Source: Reclinomonas americana ATCC 50394 (Eukaryota). Taken from it: a stretch of 54,233 nt of DNA. The notes below the pieces were generated by a model that made no database searches, was not told the origin of the DNA, and saw only the letters and a program-made list of their open reading frames with translations. The position numbers and the translations under genes are program-made. Below, piece by piece: positions 28,734 to 39,000 of this stretch (positions are counted from its first letter, which is position 1; the number at the start of each line of letters is the position of its first letter). The DNA lies in the NCBI GenBank assembly GCA_048213135.1, contig PS015119.1:247084-301316 (forward strand), in the 5' to 3' direction.

Positions 28734-30618
28734 TCACAAAGAGACACTCCACTGATGCTCTCTCTCACACTCTCTCTCTCTCACTCGCTCACCCACCCAC
28801 ACACCACTGTGAGAGAGAATGCCGTGATTTGCATGCATTCATTCCCCGTTTCTCTCTTTCCCTGTCCCCCTCTCTTCCAGGTGGCTCCCCCGTGTGCGTC
28901 GGCGTAATGATCACGGCGTCGCACAATGCACCGCGCGACAACGGCTTCAAGATTGTGGATGCCGACGGCGGCATGTTGCATGCGTCGTGGGAGGCGGTGG
29001 CGACACGTGTGGCCAATGCTGGCACGGCACGTGAGGTGGAGGCTGTGTTGTCGGAGATGTTGCCCGTGGGGGGCGAGCCGGTGTTTGGTGGTGACCAGTC
29101 GCAGGTGTGATGTGCACGGGGGAGAGAAGGAAGGAGGAGAAACGTCTCATGTTGCTTGCTGTCGTCNNNNNNNNNNNNNNNNNNNNATCGGCTGCGCGCG
29201 CTCGAGTTGCTCGATGTGGTGATTGTCAATGACGGGTGTGGCGATGGTGCCGAGGAGATGGTTCGTGCGAGTGAGACAAGAATTATGAAAAGGAGGAAAC
29301 GATATGTGTGTGAGAGAGAGCTTGTAGTCTCTCTATCTCTCTCTCTCTCTCTTTGTGTCATCTCTTTCTCTCTGTGTGTGTGTGTGTGTCATGTTGAATG
29401 TCGTTCACGTTGGCGTCGTATATTACATAATTTTTGTACTCTCTCTCTCTCTCTGTCCCCTTTTCGCAGCTGAATGTCAATGCTGGAGCCGAACACGTGC
29501 ACAAGACGCAATCGTGGCCGCGACAACTGGCCACCGCCATGGAGCGGTCGCTGGCCGCCATTGGGGTGGAAGCGATTGCGGTACACGGCGCGGGTTCGGC
29601 GGGCCTCGCTCGCAGTGACAGTCTCGCCGCGGCGCCGGCCTCCGTTCTTCTGGCGGCCAGCCTCGACGGCGATGCCGATCGCGTAATGTGCATGGACCTC
29701 GCCAGTGCAGACGGTAGCGTGTCTCTCCCTCGCGTCAAGTGTGGTGATGACCTTCCCGGCTCACCGCTTGCTTGTCAATGATGTGCAGGCGAGCCACTTA
29801 CCGTGCTCGACGGCGACTACATGGCTGTGCTGCTGGCCGCCTTTGTGGTGCGCCAGCTCAAGGCCGCCGGCGTGCTGGTGGTCAAGGAGTCGGAGGCGTC
29901 GGCTTCCGACCGTGCTCTGTCGGTCGGCGTGGTGCACACGGCCTACACCAATGGTGCCGCGGTGCAGTACCTGCGCGAGGTAGTGAACATGGACACGGCG
30001 TGCGTGCCGACGGGCGTGAAGCATCTGCATGCACGCGCACACCACTACGACATTGGTGAGTGCGCACTCGCGTTTGGAGAGGCCTCGCTCCTCACTTTCT
30101 TTCTTGCCGACGATCTCCTCCTCCATGCAGGTGTGTACTTTGAGCCGAATGGACATGGCACGGTGCTGTTCTCCACCCGTGCACAGCGTGTGCTGGCCGA
30201 CGGCGGAGATGCGGTGGCGAGCGTGCGTGCTCTGTCGCAGTTGTTCAACCAGTACACTGGCTGTGCGATTGCCGATCTGCTGGCCCTGGTTGGTGTGCTG
30301 CTCTGCGAGGGCCTGTCGATCGGCGCCTGGAAGCAGATGTATGCTCCGCGCTGCTCCACGCTGCTGCGTGTCGAGGTGCATGATCGCTCCGTGGTGCGCA
30401 CAACGTCGGACGAGCAGACGGTGGTGGAGCCGCCGGATCTGCAGCCCCGACTCGATGCCATCATCCACGAAATCGGAGGCCCGGGAGCGCGTGCATTTGT
30501 GCGTCCCAGCGGCACAGAGGACGTGGTGCGTGTGTATGCCGAGGCCGAGACGCAGCCGTTGGCCGACGCCCTCGGTGCAGCGCTGTGTGAGAGTGTGCGA
30601 TCGCGACTTGGGTCATGA
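27954..30618 (+). CDS. PGM3: Phosphoacetylglucosamine mutase (AGM1/PCM1); central part missing in a gap
   Basis: [16 protein letters not shown] (catalytic Ser), DGDADR (Mg2+ loop), [17 protein letters not shown] and [17 protein letters not shown] motifs. Confidence 0.95.
28199..28735. repeat. Three (CA)n microsatellite tracts in PGM3 intron 1
   Basis: Tracts at ~28199-28278, ~28514-28588 and ~28696-28732. Confidence 0.95.
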
Positions 30619-30727
30619 GTGGAGATGGGGGAATGAATATCGGGGCGTGTTTGTGTTGTTAGAATAAGGGGGAAGAGGAGACAAACAATGGTACATGAAA
30701 GAAAAACAACCAGCACACACATTGCCA

Positions 30728-33700
30728 TCACTGACTGTCGAGCAGGTGCGAGCCAGTGCGGAAAATGATGCTGGGGAAGCGGTCGGCAATGTCAAAAATC
30801 AGCTCACCGAACAGGCCTGGGCACAAGCGGTGAGCGGTTTGAGGGAGATGGACAACGAGAGGCTAGTACAACACACCATTGGCCCAGACGAACCACGATC
30901 GTGTGTAGTTCTGCGGATCGTCCTTCCAGTACGACTCGTGCATGAAACCAGTGCCGTCGGCACTGTTCAGCAGCGTCTGCAGCAGCAACGACACCTCATC
31001 CTGGTCGTCGCTTGTCATGGCCTGCGCGGATGGAAGGAGGAGAAGCGTGAGAAGGAGAGCGATGAAAGGGAAGGGAAAGGAGGCTGAGAATCACAGCGTG
31101 GTGCACAGTGATGAATGCAGATGTGTGCTGATTGGTGCACTGCTATGATCCCATGTCGAGAGCAGCACAAACCTGGACGATGAGAGCAATCGGCCAGATG
31201 TTGCCGGCACGAGTGTGGAACGAACCAATGCCGGTGCCGGCCAGGCCCGAGTAAAAGTACTGCGAGAGACGATGAGTCTGCAGTGTGTACTGCGACAAGT
31301 GACCACGACTCACGGGGTTCGTGTACGGTGACAGCAGCAACTGGCGTGTGTTGCGGTACACAATGTCGGTGCGATTCAGGAAGCCGAGAAGCGGCAGTGC
31401 CATGAGCTGTACCGCATGGTGAATACGCAACGCAATTTCCACGAGCGAGATAAAGAAACGAACCGACGGCACATTGGCATCGTCCATGAACACCTGTGCA
31501 CAACCATTTCACATCAACTCACGAAAGATAACACACAGCTGCAGGCAACCGACCTTGTTGTAAAAGCCGTCCACCTGTTGCCAGCGTGTCAGTCACGACG
31601 TGCACATGAATGGCGAGCACAGATGGAAAGAACCTCGTAAAAGTACACACGCTTGTCTGGTCCCGGCAGCGCGTCGTGGTTGCCGACACAGTTTTGCTGA
31701 ATAGCGTAGTTCAGGTTGCCGGCGAGGGTCAGGGCCGACTTGGCCAACGCAGCACCGTTCGGAATCAAGTTGGCGATGCGAGCGGCATTGCTGAGCCCGA
31801 CGGCCATCATGGCATTCGCCGGGCAAAAGTACGGGAAAATGTGATTGTCATCGGAGGGGCGATAGGCGCTCTTGGCTGCGTGGGAACAGAGAAGCGGTAG
31901 GAATGAGGGGAATTCGAGGAGAGCACGAGCAAGAAGAGTAAAGCCGCACCGAGACCACATCGCCGACCGGGCAGGCCGACGCCGTACTGCTGATCGTCGT
32001 ACTGGTAGGGCGCAACGCAACCATGCTACATCGAGAATCGCGTGAGTAACCCCAGAGTGTTGCCGTGGCACGCTGCACGCCAGCAGCGCCGCAACTCCAG
32101 TCTCCTGCTCCACGGTGCCGGGCATTTGAGCGTACACGGTGTCGATCACCAGCTGCACAGCTTGTGCCCACTCGGGTGACGTGAAAGGGCGCAAATCCTT
32201 GCCCCCGGTGGCATCAAAGTAGCCGGCACTCAGACGGAGGAAGCTGGCCAGTGTGTCGAGCTCGTACTTGCCCCTGTTGTCGAGGGTGTGAGTTGAAGCT
32301 GAATGTTTTGCTGCTGCTGCTGCGATGTAATGCAACACGCAACTCCCACACAATCGGAGTCAGCGGAGGGACTCGGCGAGGCGCACCGACATTGTAGGCG
32401 GCATCGTTGGCGGCGTAGTTGAATGCTGTCGGAAAAACTACAGGTGAGCAGCGAGGTGATGAGAGAGAGAAACTGTCATGCGCACCATTGGCATACGGGT
32501 CGTGGAGCACGTTGTTGGCCTGGCGGTGAATCAGACCGCGGATCATGGTCGCCAGCTTGTCATCCTGCTGCACGAAGCGCAGATAGGGCCATACCTGTTG
32601 CGGTGGAGAGGAGTGAGAAACAGTTGAGAGCGTAGACACAGGGAAGGCGCAGACGCAGACAGACGAACTTGGTTCATCGAGTCGCGGCCCCACATGGCGG
32701 GAATGTCACCTGCACAATGGAGTGTGAGAGCGGGGCGGGAGATCGTGACCAGCATTATAGAGCACACTGACCAGTGATGACAAACTGTGAAGCGCAGTGC
32801 GAGTGAGATCTTCGATCGCTTGCAACGCTGCTTGACGACAAAAACGTACCGCGTCTGGCGTCGTGTAGTCCACGTGCGAGACGGTGGTGTCAAGCGTGTT
32901 GGGAAAGCAATTGGAGAACAGCTGCGAGGAGGACAAGGTGAATGAGTTGGGGCAAGAATGGGACGAAGGAGATTCGGAGGCACCCACCGTGGCGAGGTTC
33001 GGGTCCTTCATCTTGCTGGTCATTTCTGCAGGTGGGGCAAGGGAAAGGGCAATGACAAGGGGAATGACAAGGCGAATGACAAGGAGAATGACAAGGAGAA
33101 TGACAAGGAGAATGACCAGGGGAATGACCAGGGGAATGACCAGGGGAATGACCAGGGGAATGACCAGGGGAATGACCAGGGGAATGACCAGGGGAATGAC
33201 CAGGGGAATGACCAGGGGAATGACCAGGGGAATGACCAGGGGAATGACCAGGGGAATGACCAGGGGAATGACCAGGGGAATGACCAGGAGAATGACCAGG
33301 GGAATGACCAGGAGAATGACCAGGGGAATGACCAGGAGAATGACCAGGGGAATGACCAGGAGAATGACCAGGGGGAATGACAAGGGGAATGACAAGGGGA
33401 ATGACAAGGGGAATGACAAGGGGAATGACAAGGGGAATGACAAGGGGAATGACAAGGGGAATGACAAGGGGAATGACAAGGGGAATGACAAGGGGAATGA
33501 CAAGGGGAATGACAAGGGGAACGAGAAGAGGCACGAGAAGGAGAGATGAATCAGGAGCGACACAGTGAGATAGAGAGACCCCAACAATGCACACATTTTC
33601 CCGCAACACACGCTCCCCCCGTGACACCCCACACTACTCACGAGTGATGGCAGCCTCCACCGCCGGGCTCACGAACTGCGGGTGCAGAATGAGCACAACA

Positions 33701-33858
33701 ATGCACGGAAAAATAATCATGCACTCTTGTGTCTGTGTTGCTCTCACCAGCCGCTTTGATGGATCGGGACGAGCTGCTGGGATGGTGATGGCATGCGCGA
33801 GGCAGACAGCCAGGCAAACGCAGACGCACCACAGAAGGAGAGCTGTCTTGGCGCGCAN
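30728..33858 (-). CDS. Secreted glycoside hydrolase family 125 (exo-alpha-1,6-mannosidase-like)
   Basis: Signal peptide; [99 protein letters not shown]. The start ATG abuts a gap. Confidence 0.92.
33051..33525. repeat. 12-bp minisatellite (aatgac[c/a]agg[g/a]g), about 39 copies, in a GH125 intron
   Basis: Seen directly, with ordered variant blocks; it lies within the intron whose acceptor is near 33026 and whose gtgagt donor is near 33641. Confidence 0.97.
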
Positions 33859-34167
33859 NNNNNNNNNNNNNNNNNNNTCGTGAGCAATGTGTGTCTGGAA
33901 ATCCCAACCTGTCCTCTGGAAGGTGCCCTCTGGGTATGGGTATGGCAACCAGCGATCGCCGGTGAGAAAACGCTTGCTTAAGATTAGTCAACGAAGAGAG
34001 CGCATCATGTTTCATTCAACAGCTTTTCTCTCTTCTCTCTGCTCAGTCGTCAGGCAGAGCGATTCCGGCGAGCTGCGACAACAGAAGCAACGAAGAAGCA
34101 GTGAGCATGCACATTACACACAGCGCCCACACTCTTCTCCCACCCTCGTGCTTTCAAAGGAGATAGA

Positions 34168-34285
34168 GCTTTCAGATCAGAATCTTGTCGCCTTTTCATA
34201 TCATCGGATGGCGGCACACACATTGGGGCGGCGTGCCGTTCTCCACCCTACTAAGGTGTCCTAAGAGACAATTCATCATCGAAAG
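34168..34285 (-). ncRNA. Box C/D snoRNA with an LSU guide (SNORD58-like target region)
   Basis: C box ATGATGA at 34279-34273; guide CTTAGGACACCT (34265-34254) is antisense to conserved LSU AGGUGUCCUAAG; C'-like ATGAT; CTGA at 34180-34177 and 34175-34172. Confidence 0.8.
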
Positions 34286-34488
34286 AAGAAAAGGAGAAGA
34301 ACTTCTGCTCCCTCCCCTCTCTACCCCACATACAACATGACAACTCACCAGCCTATTTGTCGCTCACGGGAGTCGAGAAGGCCACCATCAACCTGCATCA
34401 TCATCATCAACACGAGTGAGACCAATCGTGCACACAAAAGCGGGCAGGAAAGAGTCAACAGTGGTGCAGAAGGCCGTGGAAAGACAAG

Positions 34489-34582
34489 CGTGCTCAGGTT
34501 CTTGACACAAGGTTCGTATCATTGGGCGCGCAAACACCCATTCTAAACATGCTGGGATCAAGAAAGAAACTCATCATTGGTC
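34489..34582 (-). ncRNA. Box C/D snoRNA, target uncertain
   Basis: C box ATGATGA at 34577-34571, internal hairpin tgggtgtttgcgcgccca, C'-like ATGATAC, D box CTGA at 34497-34494. Confidence 0.68.
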
Positions 34583-34799
34583 TCTCTATTCTGCTGCCTT
34601 CCGCCTTGTTTCTCTCGTTGGAGGCAAAGAAAGAGTGTGCACGAAAGAAAACACTCACCATCGCAGCAGGTCGACACGCGGCTTTCCGGGGTCGACTCAA
34701 GTCGCACATCCGCGTTCACATGCCTAATGCAACAAAAACCGAGTCAGCAACCAAGCTCGGAGGCGGAGGGAGGAAAGGAAACAAAGGAGGAGTGGGGGG

Positions 34800-34887
34800 A
34801 ATTATCAGATCGAGGATTCGTTATGCATTTAGAAGTTTTTGCATGGAGGCATGCGCCCCTCAAACTAATGCAGTTCATCATGTAACA
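34800..34887 (-). ncRNA. Box C/D snoRNA, target not recognised
   Basis: C box ATGATGA at 34882-34876, D'-like TTGA, D box CTGA at 34808-34805, short terminal tta/taa pairing; about 85 nt. Confidence 0.65.
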
Positions 34888-35089
34888 TGAGGGAAGAGAA
34901 GGAAAAGGGAAGCGAGAGAGATGAAGAAAAAAAGAGGCGGGAAAAAACACTCACCGAGATAATGCAACGGCTTCAGGGCACTGCGTCGACAATAAAAAAA
35001 AGTGCACACACACGTGTCAGTGTCTTGCGGCAGCAATGGAGGTGCAGCGCAGGTGGGGGGAAAGAGGGGGGTGGGCACAGCACACACGC

Positions 35090-35167
35090 GTGTCTCAGTT
35101 TAGCATACGGTTTCGCAGCACAGATAGTCAGACTAGAGGTGTCAAACGTTTTTCTTCGTCATTGAGC
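35090..35167 (-). ncRNA. Box C/D snoRNA with an LSU guide (snR48/SNORD60-like target region)
   Basis: C-box variant ATGACGA at 35162-35156; guide TGACACCTCTAG is antisense to LSU CUAGAGGUGUCA and lies one nt before D' CTGA (35131-35128); D box CTGA at 35098-35095. Confidence 0.8.
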
Positions 35168-36003
35168 TTATGTGCATGTGTGTGCTCGTGCGTGTGGAAA
35201 GGGAGACAAGGGAGAAAGGGGCAAAGAAGGGGGAAAAAAACTCACCGCATGATGCACATGGTCGACACACGCGACTTTTTTTCGTTCAGCGCGCGCGCGC
35301 GCGTGGTTGCAGCGTCGCATGCCGCAGAGTGGGGGCACTCGCGTTGTTGCAGTGGGCCTCGTGGTGGAGGTGCACAAAGGAGGAGCGCGTCAGCAGAAAG
35401 TCATGGCTCAACGAGAGAGAAGAAAAGAGATCTTGGCTGGACGGAAAGGATCGTGGACTGAAGACTGTAAACACGTTTCACGCGTTACAAAGAGACGCGC
35501 AGTGAGCGTGGACATCAGAAACAAGGAACGCACGCGGGAATCGAAGCTGTCTACGATTGCAATCGCAATTCCTCGCAAATGACGACGACGCCACCGCTTC
35601 GCGGATCCGGATCCGGACCCGGCTTTGCTTTGTTTGCCTGGCTGACCCGAGATTCGTTGTGCCGTGTATGATCGCAGAAAACGCTATGCGTCTATGCAAG
35701 TGCGTCAAACCCGCTGTTAAACTACGCTTATGCGGTGAAGATCGCAGTTCTCGACTTGTTCGGAGCTCCGAGAGCGAACACATACGCAATATTGCAAGGA
35801 ACCTGCTGCTGCCTCAAGACTTGTGTTTGTGTTGATGTTTTGGATAGGGTTGAACTTGGTCATCAAGACAGCTGTTGCTATGTTAGATATTATCCCATTG
35901 CAGTTCTCGACTTGTCCAACCTCCACGACAGAGAACCCTTTCGCTGCTGTCCCCCTCCCTCCCCCTTTTTCCACATCTATCACTCTTTACCACCACACCA
36001 CCA

Positions 36004-39000
36004 CTACCGCTGCTGCACCAACAAATCCCGCGAGGCCAACGCACTCACTCCCTGCGCTCTCAGTCCCTGCTCGTACAACCGGCGGTACTCCAGCACAGTC
36101 TCCCTTTGCAACACCAGCAATCGGTTCTCGTCCAACTCAAACCGCAGAAATCGATCCTCCTCGGTCGAACTCTGGCACGCGGTCTCCACCAAGTCGCGCA
36201 AGTGTCTGCGGCCACGCGCGTGTCAAGGACCGCGTCAATTACACTTGCATTTCGTCACCAGCACTCACCGCAGGTTTCGCAGCTCAACGCCGTTGAACTT
36301 TCGCACTTGTGCGTCTTGCCAGCCTTGGTAGCCAGCATTTTGGTCGTCGACCAGCACGTGTGCAAGAATCACAATCTGTGGACAACGTCAAAGCGCGAGG
36401 CACTGCACGACTCGACGTGGGAATGGCAGCATACCTCCTCGTCGGGATGCTTGGCGAGTGCAGTGACGGCCTTGTGCACGAGTCGACGAGGGGCGTTGTT
36501 GAACTGCACACAAGCACACCACAGAGCGTTGAATAAACCACCTTGAATCTCTCCCAGCACCCGGCACCACTCACCCACTCGTGACCCCACTCGTGAATGT
36601 ACGGCTGCATGTGTAGAATGAGGGCGCAGAGGTCACATGGCAAGACAACATCCACACAAACCTGCACAAAGCGCAGGAATACGAGACCAGCAACAATCTG
36701 TATACTCGACCATCGGTGAGTACTCACAGCAACGATGAATCCATCACTTTGTCCCACACGCAACATAGTAACTCGGTTGCTGCCCGTAAAACGTCGGTGG
36801 CACAAGCACCGGCAGTGGTGCCATCGTCAGTTGCAGGTCGTGTTGCTGTCGACACGACGCAGGGTCAATCTGCTTTCCAACAATACGCCCACAGTGTCAC
36901 ACTCCTCCAGCAAACCTGATGATCGCGCCACACCGACAGCCGGCAAGTCTCTCCCGGCAACTTCATCTGCACCAGGTAGTCGAACTGAACGCGCTCGCCG
37001 GTGGTTTCCAGTTGCGACGAATCGCTTGCTGTGTCACACACAAGTGTCCGTCGGCGCCGCAATACGTGCTCTCTCTCGCACTCCCACGCCAGACGCAACA
37101 TGCACGAAGAGGGACAGAGCCGTCATTTGCCACTTGGGTTCCATCAATGGCCAACAGTACGTCGTTGGTCTGCAGCACACCCTTGGCCGGGCTGAGCGGA
37201 TACACCTCGTTGACGAGGACGCCGGTCTGCGTGCGCGGGCAACGAGGGGAAGAGATTTGCATAAGTGAAGCGAAAGGAGAAGATAAACAAACAGAGAGAG
37301 ACAGAGAGTGAGAGCACGCACTAACACACAGAGGCATGTTGATATTGCGTCAGTGACAGGAAGGCAGAGGAATCGACAAACCAGCATTACTTGGTCACAT
37401 GAACAAACAGAGAGAGAGAGAGAGAGAGAGAGTGAGAAGAAAAGGAGCACAGGCACTCACGTACAGAGACATGTTGATATTGCGCCAGTGACTGACAGCA
37501 ATATGAGAAGACAACAGTTCACGGAATGCGATAGAGAAGAGAAAATATAAACAGAGGCAGCGAGACAGAGAGAGTACGCTCACGCACAGAGACGTGTCGA
37601 CAAAGTAACCCTTAAGAAGAGAGAAAGAGAAGCAAGGGTCAGGCGAAACAGACAACGCACTGCACACCGCTCACCTGTCCGTCTTGCATGCGAAGGAAGG
37701 CGCGCAAGTTGGGATTCTCCAACGCCTGACACAGCAGCCCCAGCGAACAGAACCCATTGAAGCGGCCGTTCTTGGCAACGTCTTGCCTGCAAGGTGGGTC
37801 AGCCACCACCCGCGCACACACGCGCACATGCCTCACGCAACAGGAAATGCCGAATGATGGGCACTGGAATCACCCAGCCAATGTTCTCTGCATCCTGGAG
37901 GTTCTGGAAAGCCACTCCAACGACTTTGCCACCTTGGACAACGGGACCACCGCTGCGTGGACAGGAATTTGTGGTGAGAAGGTAGAAGGCGAAAATGCAC
38001 AGCAGTATGATCGCTTGTACCTGTTGCCTGGATTGATGGCGGCATCGATCTGAATGGCCAGCAGCGTGGCGGCACCTGGAGTTCATGTGAGCAACAACCG
38101 CGACAGCGCAGCGGTCGACTGCCACACACCATGAGCGTAGAGGACTGGTTCCACACGGGAGACCACGCCCTGCGTCACGGACAGCGAGTCGCCACCAGTG
38201 GGGTAGCCAAGAACAACCACTTGATCTTGCAATAGCTGCCGCCATAATCAAGTCAGCAAAGACGACTCGCTCACTCCGAACAGCCTCATGCAAACAGCGA
38301 CTCACAACTCTTCGACAGCTCACTACAGACACACGTACTTTCCAAGCGTTCACTCGGATTATACTGACTGATCAACCCACGGACTNNNNNNNNNNNNNNN
38401 NNNNNNNNNNNNNNNNNNNNNNNNNNNNNNNNNNNNNNNNNNNNNNNNNNNNNNNNNNNNNNNNNNNNNNNNNNNNNNNNNNNNNNNNNNNNNNNNNNNN
38501 NNNNNNNNNNNNNNNNNNNNNNNNNNNNNNNNNNNNNNNNNNNNNNNNNNNNNNNNNNNNNNNNNNNNNNNNNNNNNNNNNNNNNNNNNNNNNNNNNNNN
38601 NNNNNNNNNNNNNNNNNNNNNNNNNNNNNNNNNNNNNNNNNNNNNNNNNNNNNNNNNNNNNNNNNNNNNNNNNNNNNNNNNNNNNNNNNNNNNNNNNNNN
38701 NAGTTTTGGGTCGGGTTGCAGTCGTTTGAGTTTGGAGAATTGCCGGTGAGGAGGAGGCGGGGGGAGGGAGAAGGGGAAGGAGGGAGAATAGAAGCATTGA
38801 GACAAGGAGAAAGGAGAGGGAATGACAGCGAGAAGACAGAGAAGAAAGCAGAGAGAACAGGCGGATCGAGGAGGAGGGAGTCAGACAGGGAGAACGGCAG
38901 AAGGCAGAGAGAAGGACAAGAGAGAAAGATGAGGACGATGAGAGTGAGAGAGAGAGTGAGAGAGACAGCCAGAGACAAAACAGAGAAGGATGCAGTCAGA

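What the first reader, a model, noticed from the sequence alone, without database searches (positions are those of the whole stretch)
34000..35300. Non-coding snoRNA host gene: four introns, one box C/D snoRNA in each
Seen in sequence: this apparently intergenic 1.3 kb has four evenly sized introns (231-276 nt, versus ~55-90 nt in coding genes). All four have the strong GTGAGT donor, which is a minority donor elsewhere in the window. They separate tiny exons with no meaningful ORF. Each intron has exactly one C box...CTGA unit ending roughly 80-115 nt upstream of the 3' splice site. Established: this architecture is that of the metazoan UHG/GAS5 host genes and of some fungal intronic snoRNA clusters. 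Inference: a dedicated, splicing-dependent snoRNA host lncRNA in a protist, invisible to ORF-based annotation.
Basis: partly seen in the sequence, partly recalled or inferred. Interest (0 to 1): 0.85.

Follow-up and report, generated by a model that had tools for sequence, protein, structure and literature searches.

The report
Four intron-hosted box C/D snoRNAs
Four consecutive, unusually long introns separated by tiny non-coding exons each carry one small RNA that most likely guides methylation of ribosomal RNA, a gene layout already known from animals and fungi.

Summary
Four introns of 265, 231, 266 and 276 nt all start G|GTGAGT. They are separated by exons of 26, 65 and 44 nt with no usable reading frame. 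Each holds one C box...CTGA unit ending 81-114 nt before the 3' splice site. None of the 59 other GTGAGT sites in the window is followed by such a unit.

Three units carry 5' guides complementary to conserved rRNA. Unit A pairs with large-subunit CUAGAGGUGUCA, directly upstream of a canonical CUGA D' box. Unit D has the SNORD58-type guide to AGGUGUCCUAAG. Unit C pairs with small-subunit AUCAAGAACGAAA at 12 of 13 positions. Unit B has boxes but no target.

The snoRNA reading is therefore well supported. The "dedicated lncRNA host" reading is only partly supported. The last intron ends about 215 nt plus a 20-N gap before the GH125 start codon on the same strand, so the exons could be the GH125 5' leader. 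Ten upstream ATGs argue against a translatable leader. No RNA reads, own genome or own rRNA were available.

This is a new member of a known kind (animal UHG/GAS5, Neurospora UHG-like clusters). Interest is modest.

The parts
35246..35330 (-). 3' part of the first non-coding exon. Its 5' end (the transcription start) is unknown. An 18-nt pyrimidine tract lies further upstream at 35430-35413.
   Evidence: Sequence upstream of the first G|GTGAGT donor. It holds ATGs but no long ORF.
34981..35245 (-). Intron 1, 265 nt. Donor GTGAGT, CTGAC branch-like motif 36 nt before the CAG acceptor.
35095..35162 (-). snoRNA unit A, from C box to D box. C box ATGACGA at 35162-35156, D' CTGA at 35131-35128, D CTGA at 35098-35095. 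The 5' guide at 35146-35132 (TTTGACACCTCTAGT) abuts D'.
   Evidence: The guide forms 14-15 bp with large-subunit CTAGAGGTGTCAGA in references L027 and L003. The 12-nt exact core is conserved in 2 of 3 reference large-subunit rRNAs; 4 of 4000 random 24-mers from the window do as well. It also pairs in L077 and L126.
34955..34980 (-). Exon 2, 26 nt, non-coding.
34724..34954 (-). Intron 2, 231 nt. Donor GTGAGT, CTGAC motif 20 nt before the TAG acceptor.
34805..34881 (-). snoRNA unit B. C box ATGATGA at 34881-34875, D box CTGA at 34808-34805, and an internal GCATG/CATGC hairpin. No rRNA target was found, so it is an orphan.
   Evidence: Boxes and position. Weak box-level likeness to Rfam snoR118 (16.6 bits, E=4.4, below the gathering score of 44). 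No guide match above background.
34659..34723 (-). Exon 3, 65 nt, non-coding.
34393..34658 (-). Intron 3, 266 nt. Donor GTGAGT, CTCAC motif 24 nt before the CAG acceptor.
34494..34577 (-). snoRNA unit C. C box ATGATGA at 34577-34571, C'-like ATGATA near 34522, D box CTGA at 34497-34494. The 5' guide is at 34569-34557 (TTTCTTTCTTGAT).
   Evidence: 12 of 13 Watson-Crick pairs with small-subunit ATCAAGAACGAAA in all 4 reference small-subunit rRNAs (L038, L011, L029, L077). A 12/13 match to a conserved rRNA 13-mer occurs in 99 of 20000 random window 24-mers.
34349..34392 (-). Exon 4, 44 nt, non-coding.
34073..34348 (-). Intron 4, 276 nt. Donor GTGAGT, CTCAC motif 29 nt before the CAG acceptor.
34177..34279 (-). 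snoRNA unit D. C box ATGATGA at 34279-34273, C'-like GATGATA near 34206, D box CTGA at 34180-34177. The CTTTC/GAAAG terminal stem is offset by 3 nt. The 5' guide is at 34268-34254 (TCTCTTAGGACACCT).
   Evidence: Rfam SNORD58 hit through its guide (17.5 bits, E=2.8, below the gathering score of 42). 13 Watson-Crick pairs with the L003 large-subunit rRNA. 15 pairs with L126. The terminal stem appears in the fold.
33878..34072 (-). Last exon of the leader, 195 nt. It runs into the 20-N gap at 33858-33877. It holds three ATGs, and a frame stays open from 34015 into the gap.
33748..33858 (-). First coding exon of the downstream GH125 gene. The A of the ATG would be the last N of the gap. It encodes the signal peptide [22 protein letters not shown] followed by RPDPSKRL.
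   Evidence: Translations, and the sequence. It is collinear with the N-terminus of homologue P0002 printed (signal peptide, then RPPVNERKFISSAIENVINQTSSKMVDPYLAFLF...NTLDTTV).
36004..36222 (-). Last coding exon of the upstream same-strand gene, a Do/Deg-like PDZ protease. Its stop lies about 760 nt upstream of the first snoRNA-intron donor.
   Evidence: Weak PF17815 PDZ_3 match (E=0.015, below cut-off) and PDZ hits in an earlier exon. Sequence.

Best explanation
The minus strand from about 35330 to 33878 is a multi-exon, non-coding RNA polymerase II transcription unit. Its only evident products are four intron-encoded box C/D snoRNAs, one per intron.

Inferred mechanism:
- The primary transcript is spliced at four strong G|GTGAGT donors.
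- Each excised lariat is debranched and trimmed by exonucleases from both ends.
- Trimming stops at the snoRNP that has assembled on the C/D kink-turn.
- The uniform placement of the units reflects splicing-coupled assembly. They lie 69-83 nt after the donor and about 61-78 nt before the putative branch point.

Predicted targets, from the 5' (D'-side) guides:
- Unit A directs 2'-O-methylation of the large-subunit G in CUAG*AGGUGUC. This is the snR48/U60 neighbourhood.
- Unit D acts at AGGUGUCC in the same large-subunit domain. This is the SNORD58 site.
- Unit C acts at small-subunit AUCAA*GAACG. This is the snR54/U59 site.
- Unit B is an orphan.

The spliced exons carry ten ATGs and only short ORFs. 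I therefore read them as a UHG/GAS5-like throw-away host RNA, not a productive leader for GH125. GH125 would then need its own start site close to its ATG.

What is shown: the sequence anatomy, its non-randomness and the guide complementarity. What is inferred: the splicing, the stable small RNAs, the methylation and the independence from GH125.

The confidence of 0.5 is for the whole statement, including independence from GH125. For the core claim alone, four intron-hosted C/D snoRNAs between non-coding exons, I would give about 0.85.
For: Anatomy and placement:
- 4 of 4 donors here are followed by a C...D unit, against 0 of 59 other GTGAGT sites.
- GTGAGT is used by only 2 of 8 GH125 introns, and 6 of those 8 are 54-74 nt.

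Guides:
- Unit A's guide abuts a canonical CUGA D' box and pairs 14-15 bp with large-subunit rRNA. Its 12-nt exact core is conserved; 4 of 4000 random 24-mers match that well.
- 2 of 8 guide windows (A 5' and C 5') match conserved rRNA 13-mers at 12/13 or better. The background is 99 of 20000 random 24-mers.
- Unit D's guide is identical over 14 nt to the Rfam SNORD58 consensus guide. It pairs 13-15 bp with large-subunit rRNA.
- The same C box plus guide arrangement occurs in at least 116 metagenome contigs. Of 96 distinct copies examined, 70 have a D box and a terminal stem of 4 bp or more.

Literature:
- The Neurospora table lists snR48/U60 and snR54/U59 as D'-guided, with 13 bp each (PMC2780460, passages).
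- A human site table gives Gm4228 for SNORD58, Gm4370 for SNORD60 and 18S Am1031 for SNORD59 (PMC11550049, passages).
- The two large-subunit targets lie 143-146 nt apart in reference L029. They are 142 nt apart in human.

Non-coding exons:
- There are stops in all frames and 10 ATGs in the spliced exons.
- No Pfam match at E up to 1 for 6 ORFs in and around the region on both strands: two plus-strand ORFs over the introns, one plus-strand ORF over intron 4 and the last exon, two minus-strand frames over the last exon and the GH125 start, and one minus-strand ORF upstream of exon 1.
Against: - No RNA evidence of any kind. No RNA run was listed, so splicing and stable small RNAs are unproven.
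- Rfam finds nothing at curated thresholds. The two sub-threshold hits have E=2.8 and E=4.4.
- The D' boxes of units C and D are degenerate (CCCA-like and TAGT/AGTA-like).
- Unit A has a variant C box (AUGACGA) and no clear terminal stem.
- None of the four 3' (D-box) guides has a convincing rRNA target. The best candidate fell in a non-conserved expansion segment of one reference.
- Unit C's guide has one internal mismatch.
- The rRNA references come from other organisms. They are eukaryotic rDNA contigs found in prokaryote assemblies and metagenomes.
- L077 and L126 were fished with unit D's own guide, so their match to unit D is by construction.
- Against independence from GH125: the last intron ends only 215 nt plus a 20-N gap before the GH125 ATG on the same strand. 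I could recognise no terminator or second promoter. The genome is compact, with the convergent GH125 and AGM1 stop codons about 110 nt apart.
Confidence: 0.5

Rival explanations
1. The four intronic snoRNAs are the same, but the small exons are the spliced 5' leader (5' UTR) of the GH125 mRNA. GH125 is then a protein-coding host gene with four snoRNA-bearing 5'-UTR introns.
For: - Same strand, and the last snoRNA intron ends 215 nt plus a 20-N gap upstream of the GH125 ATG.
- There is little room for a terminator plus a promoter. The genome is compact, with convergent stop codons about 110 nt apart.
- In Ostreococcus tauri all 72 intronic snoRNAs sit in protein-coding hosts, some in consecutive introns (PMC7671301, passages).
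Against: - Ten upstream ATGs, including a 51-codon uORF and a frame open from 34015 into the gap. These would strongly block translation of GH125 from such a leader.
- Four introns in one 5' UTR would be unusual.
- The GH125 N-terminus is collinear with homologue P0002 from its own signal peptide. No N-terminal extension is therefore expected.
- The true gap length is unknown and could hide a promoter.
Confidence: 0.35
2. The four units are real snoRNAs but are made from an unspliced polycistronic precursor cut by endo- and exonucleases, as in plants, trypanosomatids and Euglena. The splice-like signals would then be unused.
For: Polycistronic clusters are the dominant mode in several protist and plant lineages (introduction of PMC7671301; background of PMC2780460). 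No splicing evidence is available here.
Against: - Four G|GTGAGT donors is far from chance, given 0 of 59 elsewhere with a unit and 2 of 8 GH125 introns with that donor.
- Each donor is paired at 231-276 nt with a YAG that follows a branch-like motif and a pyrimidine tract.
- There is exactly one unit between each pair, at a constant offset.
Confidence: 0.07
3. Chance motifs or decayed snoRNA pseudogenes: no functional small RNA is produced.
For: - No Rfam hit at gathering score.
- Degenerate D' boxes and weak terminal stems in units A and C.
- No targets for the 3' guides or for unit B.
Against: The combined non-randomness of donors, unit placement and two to three conserved rRNA guides. The essential GA dinucleotides are intact in all C and D boxes.
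Confidence: 0.04

Closest known systems
Vertebrate and Drosophila non-coding snoRNA host genes (UHG/SNHG1, GAS5, dUHG)
   Same: Multi-exon unit with one box C/D snoRNA per intron. Short exons without a meaningful ORF and many early stops. snoRNAs placed at a fixed distance upstream of the 3' splice site. (The GAS5/UHG description is partly from recall; passages of PMC2780460 describe them the same way.)
   Different: Transcription, splicing, a 5'TOP start and NMD sensitivity are not shown here. The introns are much shorter. The unit abuts a protein-coding gene and may be its leader. The organism is not an animal, judging by its 54-74 nt introns and by GH125 homologues of at most 32% identity at 83% query coverage (one short hit reaches 51% over 25% of the query).
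UHG-like box C/D snoRNA clusters I-V of Neurospora crassa, conserved in yeasts (PMC2780460)
   Same: In a microbial eukaryote with short introns, C/D snoRNAs lie one per intron in host genes that hold only short ORFs. Canonical splice signals flank each snoRNA. D'-guided snR48/U60-type and snR54/U59-type snoRNAs exist there (passages).
   Different: The snoRNA composition differs. No U58 appears in the Neurospora text (0 occurrences). Splicing there was verified by RT-PCR; here it was not. No sequence homology of the host exons was tested or expected.
Intronic snoRNAs in consecutive introns of protein-coding genes of Ostreococcus tauri (PMC7671301)
   Same: A unicellular eukaryote with a compact genome and one snoRNA per intron in two or three consecutive introns (passages).
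   Different: The hosts there are coding genes and the snoRNA introns interrupt coding sequence. Here the exons between the snoRNA introns are non-coding.
Rfam SNORD58 (RF00151), and by function SNORD60/snR48 and SNORD59/snR54
   Same: Unit D shares the 14-nt guide UCUUAGGACACCUU with the SNORD58 consensus. Units A and C are complementary to the rRNA stretches that hold the snR48/U60 and snR54/U59 sites, and both use the D' side as in Neurospora.
   Different: No covariance-model membership. SNORD58 scores 17.5 bits against a threshold of 42, and SNORD59 and SNORD60 are not reported at E up to 10. Unit A's predicted G lies two bases 5' of the G that spacing arguments assign to U60. Exact site equivalence could not be fixed without this organism's rRNA.

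Membership tests
Box C/D snoRNA (class) | C box RUGAUGA near the 5' end and D box CUGA near the 3' end | tested here: met
   Units B, C and D have AUGAUGA. Unit A has AUGACGA, with the GA dinucleotides kept. All four have CUGA 68-103 nt downstream.
Box C/D snoRNA (class) | Terminal stem of about 4-5 bp that brings the C and D boxes together | tested here: inconclusive
   Unit D: CUUUC/GAAAG, 5 bp, offset by 3 nt. Unit B: 4 bp with one bulge, by inspection. Unit C: 6 bp, but 8 nt beyond the D box. Unit A: none evident.
Box C/D snoRNA (class) | Antisense element of 10-21 nt ending next to a D or D' box, with the target base pairing to the fifth base upstream | tested here: met
   Fully met for unit A, with 14-15 bp abutting a canonical CUGA D' box. 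Met with degenerate D' boxes for units C (12/13) and D (13-15 bp). Not met for unit B or for any 3' guide.
Box C/D snoRNA (class) | Stable 60-120 nt RNA bound by fibrillarin, Nop56, Nop58 and Snu13, with the target actually methylated | not testable with these tools
   No RNA run was listed and no genome or rRNA of the organism is held.
Rfam SNORD58 (RF00151) | Covariance-model score at or above the curated gathering score of 42 bits | tested here: not met
   17.5 bits, E=2.8 in a 2.2-kb search. No hit at gathering level. The likeness is in the guide and C box only.
UHG/GAS5-type non-coding snoRNA host gene | One snoRNA per intron in several consecutive introns | tested here: met
   Four of four predicted introns hold exactly one unit.
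UHG/GAS5-type non-coding snoRNA host gene | Spliced exons lack a long or conserved ORF | tested here: met
   Stops in all three frames and a longest complete ORF of 51 codons. No Pfam match for local ORFs. Conservation could not be tested.
UHG/GAS5-type non-coding snoRNA host gene | Independent, spliced, polyadenylated Pol II transcript, not the UTR of a neighbouring coding gene | not testable with these tools
   No RNA data. The GH125 ATG lies 215 nt plus a 20-N gap downstream on the same strand, so independence is open.
UHG/GAS5-type non-coding snoRNA host gene | 5'-terminal oligopyrimidine (TOP) transcription start | tested here: inconclusive
   An 18-nt pyrimidine tract lies at 35430-35413 upstream of exon 1, but the start site is unknown.

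The most novel reading that the evidence does not exclude
A genuine dedicated non-coding snoRNA host gene of the animal UHG/GAS5 type, with one snoRNA per intron and uORF-laden throw-away exons. It would belong to a poorly sampled, non-animal, non-fungal microbial eukaryote. Its GH125 has no relative above 32% identity at high query coverage among the longer proteins of a 5.8-billion-protein collection. The host RNA would share or read into the promoter region of the next gene. That would mean this architecture is either ancestral to a much wider part of the eukaryote tree or evolves repeatedly wherever introns and snoRNAs coexist. Transcription of the host might also gate expression of the downstream GH125.
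Probability: 0.4. Interest if true: 0.5.

Novelty: new member of a known kind. Interest (0 to 1): 0.35.

Why it matters
snoRNAs are badly under-annotated in protists and fungi. Rfam at curated thresholds sees nothing here, and a 2025 tool paper makes the same point (PMC12309372, passages).

This locus gives four candidate methylation guides. Three have testable predicted rRNA sites. It also gives a clean example of how snoRNA-bearing introns stand out in a short-intron genome: four times the usual length, consensus donors and a fixed internal position. That signature could serve to find more such genes in the same genome.

If the exons prove to be an independent lncRNA, the known range of UHG-like host genes widens. 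If they are the GH125 leader, this is an unusual four-intron 5' UTR used as a snoRNA nursery. Either way it extends a known principle and does not add a new one.

Tried and rejected
- **Own genome:** none is held, so the organism's own rRNA, paralogous snoRNAs and other host genes could not be examined.
- **Sequencing runs:** no RNA holder was listed for window 29700-36700. Read laying was therefore never used.
- **Rfam:** 0 hits for the whole window at gathering level. E-value scans of 33600-35800 and 35250-36100 gave only sub-threshold hits. The ROSE_2, CRISPR-DR64, RMST_8 and UPD-PKd hits are chance-level and were dismissed.
- **Tandem duplication of the four exon-intron units:** rejected. 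Mean column identity was 49% in a four-way alignment.
- **Target for unit A's 3' guide:** the candidate in L029 large-subunit rRNA (15 of 16 pairs) was rejected. It lies in an AT-rich expansion segment with no counterpart in the other references.
- **Other weak pairings judged chance-level and not used:** unit B to small-subunit UUGUUGCAGUU (7 Watson-Crick pairs, then a mismatch and G-U pairs), and unit C's UCCCAGCAUGU to large-subunit rRNA in L077 (10 Watson-Crick pairs plus one G-U).
- **Exact 12- to 14-mer scan of the whole window against the first rRNA set:** too noisy to use, because of low-complexity expansion segments.
- **Folding:** uninformative for units A, B and D (z-scores +1.0, -0.9, -1.4). 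Unit C folds well (z=-3.6), but in a way that buries its C box. The 296-nt stretch upstream of exon 1 is not structured (z=+0.4).
- **Close relatives of the locus among the fetched metagenome contigs:** none beyond the 25-30 nt pattern region. The test "snoRNAs conserved, exons not" could therefore not be done.
- **Own annotated GH125 protein:** not found among longer proteins, so no public gene model could be consulted.
- **Earlier findings of this scan:** nothing for this genome or sequence. A word search gave only unrelated intron cases.
- **Literature:** three searches turned up no paper on UHG-like hosts in protists other than fungi and algae. This is a limited search and no proof of absence. 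Supplementary tables, which list hosts and targets, were closed.
Full report
**What is there**

The feature lies on the minus strand. Between the stop of an upstream Do/Deg-like PDZ protease gene near 36004 and the start of a GH125 alpha-mannosidase gene there are four G|GTGAGT donors, at 35245, 34954, 34658 and 34348. Each donor pairs with a YAG acceptor that follows a pyrimidine tract and a CTSAC-like branch motif. The resulting introns are 265, 231, 266 and 276 nt, and the internal exons are 26, 65 and 44 nt.

Each intron holds exactly one C box...CTGA unit. Three C boxes are ATGATGA and one is ATGACGA. The units start 69-83 nt after the donor and end 114, 81, 101 and 104 nt before the acceptor.

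**Is it more than chance?**

Yes.
- None of the 59 other GTGAGT sites in the window is followed by a C...D unit at 40-120 nt. Here it is 4 of 4.
- RTGAYGA occurs 42 times elsewhere. Only 7 of those have a CTGA at the right distance.
- I rebuilt the GH125 gene from homologue alignments and direct reading. Six of its 8 introns are 54-74 nt. The others are 151 nt and a 616-nt intron swollen by a minisatellite.
- Only 2 of those 8 introns use GTGAGT. The snoRNA introns are thus about four times the usual length and uniformly carry the consensus donor.
- The four units are not recent duplicates of each other. Mean column identity is 49%.

**Are they snoRNAs?**

Rfam reports nothing at curated thresholds. 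A permissive scan gives SNORD58 for unit D (17.5 bits, E=2.8), driven by a 14-nt identity to the family's guide. It also gives snoR118 for unit B (E=4.4), driven by the boxes.

No genome of the organism is held. I therefore obtained eukaryotic rRNA references from other sources:
- rDNA contigs present in prokaryote assemblies;
- a complete, high-scoring rDNA unit on a metagenome contig, L077.

The guide results are as follows.
- **Unit A.** The 5' guide TTTGACACCTCTAGT ends exactly at a canonical CUGA D' box. It pairs 14-15 bp with large-subunit CTAGAGGTGTCAGA. Its 12-nt exact core is conserved in two of three reference large-subunit rRNAs, and only 4 of 4000 random 24-mers from the window do as well.
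- **Unit C.** The 5' guide pairs 12 of 13 with small-subunit ATCAAGAACGAAA in all four reference small-subunit rRNAs.
- **Background.** A 12/13 match to a conserved rRNA 13-mer occurs in 99 of 20000 random 24-mers. Two of the eight guide windows show one.
- **Unit D.** The guide pairs 13 bp with L003 and 15 bp with L126 large-subunit rRNA. L126 and L077 were fished with this very guide, so for unit D they do not count as independent.
- **The same arrangement elsewhere.** Of 96 distinct copies with full flanks, 70 have a D box and a terminal stem of 4 bp or more. Unit D's front half is thus typical of a widespread U58-like family.

**Which sites?**

- The Neurospora table lists snR48/U60 (26S Gm2751) and snR54/U59 (18S Am971) as D'-guided with 13 bp (PMC2780460, passages).
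- A human table lists Gm4228 for SNORD58, Gm4370 for SNORD60, Gm4392 for SNORD1 and 18S Am1031 for SNORD59 (PMC11550049, passages).
- The two large-subunit targets lie 143-146 nt apart in reference L029, against 142 nt in human.
- By the fifth-base rule, unit A points to the G in CUAG*AGG. That is two bases 5' of the G which the 22-nt spacing to the snR38/SNORD1 site assigns to U60. From recall only, yeast snR48 is credited with both Gs.
- Unit C points to the A in AUCAA*G. This is position 972 in L077 and 974 in L038 numbering, close to Neurospora Am971.
- Exact equivalence needs the organism's own rRNA.

**Weak points**

- The D' boxes of units C and D are degenerate.
- Unit A lacks a clear terminal stem and has a variant C box.
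- Unit B has no target.
- None of the four 3' guides has a credible rRNA match. One candidate fell in a non-conserved expansion segment.
- Folding adds little.

**Host RNA or GH125 leader?**

The spliced exons have stops in all frames, ten ATGs and a longest complete ORF of 51 codons. Local ORFs on both strands match no Pfam family. The exons are therefore non-coding.

However, the GH125 coding sequence begins at the edge of the 20-N gap:
- (A)TG, then [22 protein letters not shown]...RPDPSKRL;
- a 72-nt intron, then [11 protein letters not shown];
- after the next intron, [13 protein letters not shown], then [14 protein letters not shown].

This is collinear with homologue P0002 from its own signal peptide onward. 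The last snoRNA intron thus ends only about 215 nt plus the gap before the GH125 ATG.

The genome is compact. The convergent GH125 and phosphoacetylglucosamine-mutase stop codons are about 110 nt apart. That leaves little room for a terminator and a promoter.

On the other side, ten upstream ATGs and a frame open from 34015 into the gap would cripple GH125 translation from such a leader. Four introns in one 5' UTR is also unusual.

I put an independent or functionally separate host at about 0.5, and the GH125-leader model at about 0.35. An unspliced polycistronic cluster gets about 0.07, and chance motifs or pseudogenes about 0.04. No RNA run was listed, so this cannot be settled here.

**Comparison and novelty**

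- One snoRNA per intron in a non-coding host is the UHG/GAS5 design of animals. It has been shown by RT-PCR for five C/D clusters of Neurospora crassa, conserved in yeasts (PMC2780460).
- Intronic snoRNAs in consecutive introns occur in the unicellular alga Ostreococcus tauri, there in coding hosts (PMC7671301).
- The locus is therefore a new member of a known kind.
- Three literature searches found no report of such a host in other protist lineages. This is weak evidence.

**Verdict**

- The snoRNA interpretation is well supported for units A, C and D and plausible for unit B.
- The "dedicated lncRNA" claim is open.
- Interest is modest, at 0.35.

Noticed in passing
window 33056-33513 (minus strand), inside GH125 intron 2 (33641-33026): A 12-nt minisatellite (CCCCTTGTCATT / CCCCTGGTCATT types, about 38 units) swells this intron to 616 nt. 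Read as protein, it gives the PLSF/LVIP repeats seen in the ORF list.
   Followed up: partly
window 35741-35759 and 35897-35915: A 19-nt direct repeat (16 nt exact, spacing 156 nt) lies in the spacer between the protease gene and the first host exon. It occurs nowhere else in the window. The region shows no special fold. It could be a promoter or terminator element, or a remnant of a small repeat.
   Followed up: partly
window 35579-35645, plus strand: A weak C/D-like unit antisense to the host direction: ATGACGA...CTGA, 67 nt, with a 4-bp CTCG/CGAG flanking stem. It has a 10-nt match to conserved large-subunit AAACAAAGCA, but that match ends 6 nt from the D box and its flanks do not pair. Probably chance.
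   Followed up: partly
window 30616-30730: The stop codons of the convergent GH125 (30730-30728, minus) and phosphoacetylglucosamine mutase (ORF end 30618, plus) genes lie about 110 nt apart. Their 3' UTRs must be very short or overlap.
   Followed up: partly
window 34670, 34691, 34985, 35261: The palindrome GTCGAC occurs four times in or next to the small exons, against 38 in the whole window. This is about a four-fold local excess and not significant on its own.
   Followed up: no
loci L001-L048 (for example L027, L029, L003, L038, L011): At least 48 contigs filed under bacterial or archaeal genome assemblies carry the 3' end of eukaryotic small-subunit rRNA. The five examined hold full or partial eukaryotic rDNA units, one with a group I intron. 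This is eukaryotic contamination of prokaryote assemblies.
   Followed up: partly
loci L082, L094 (four copies each), L063, L085 (three copies each): U58-like snoRNA genes occur as tandem arrays spaced 0.4-2.2 kb on single metagenome contigs. After the shared guide, the D' position reads CAGA, ATGA, TGGA or TTAA one base after CCT, and rarely the canonical CTGA.
   Followed up: partly
window 35499-35523 versus 34098-34122: A stretch upstream of exon 1 resembles the branch-site region of intron 4 at 80% over 25 nt. It is followed by TTTACAG at about 35474. There may be a further upstream intron of the host transcript.
   Followed up: no
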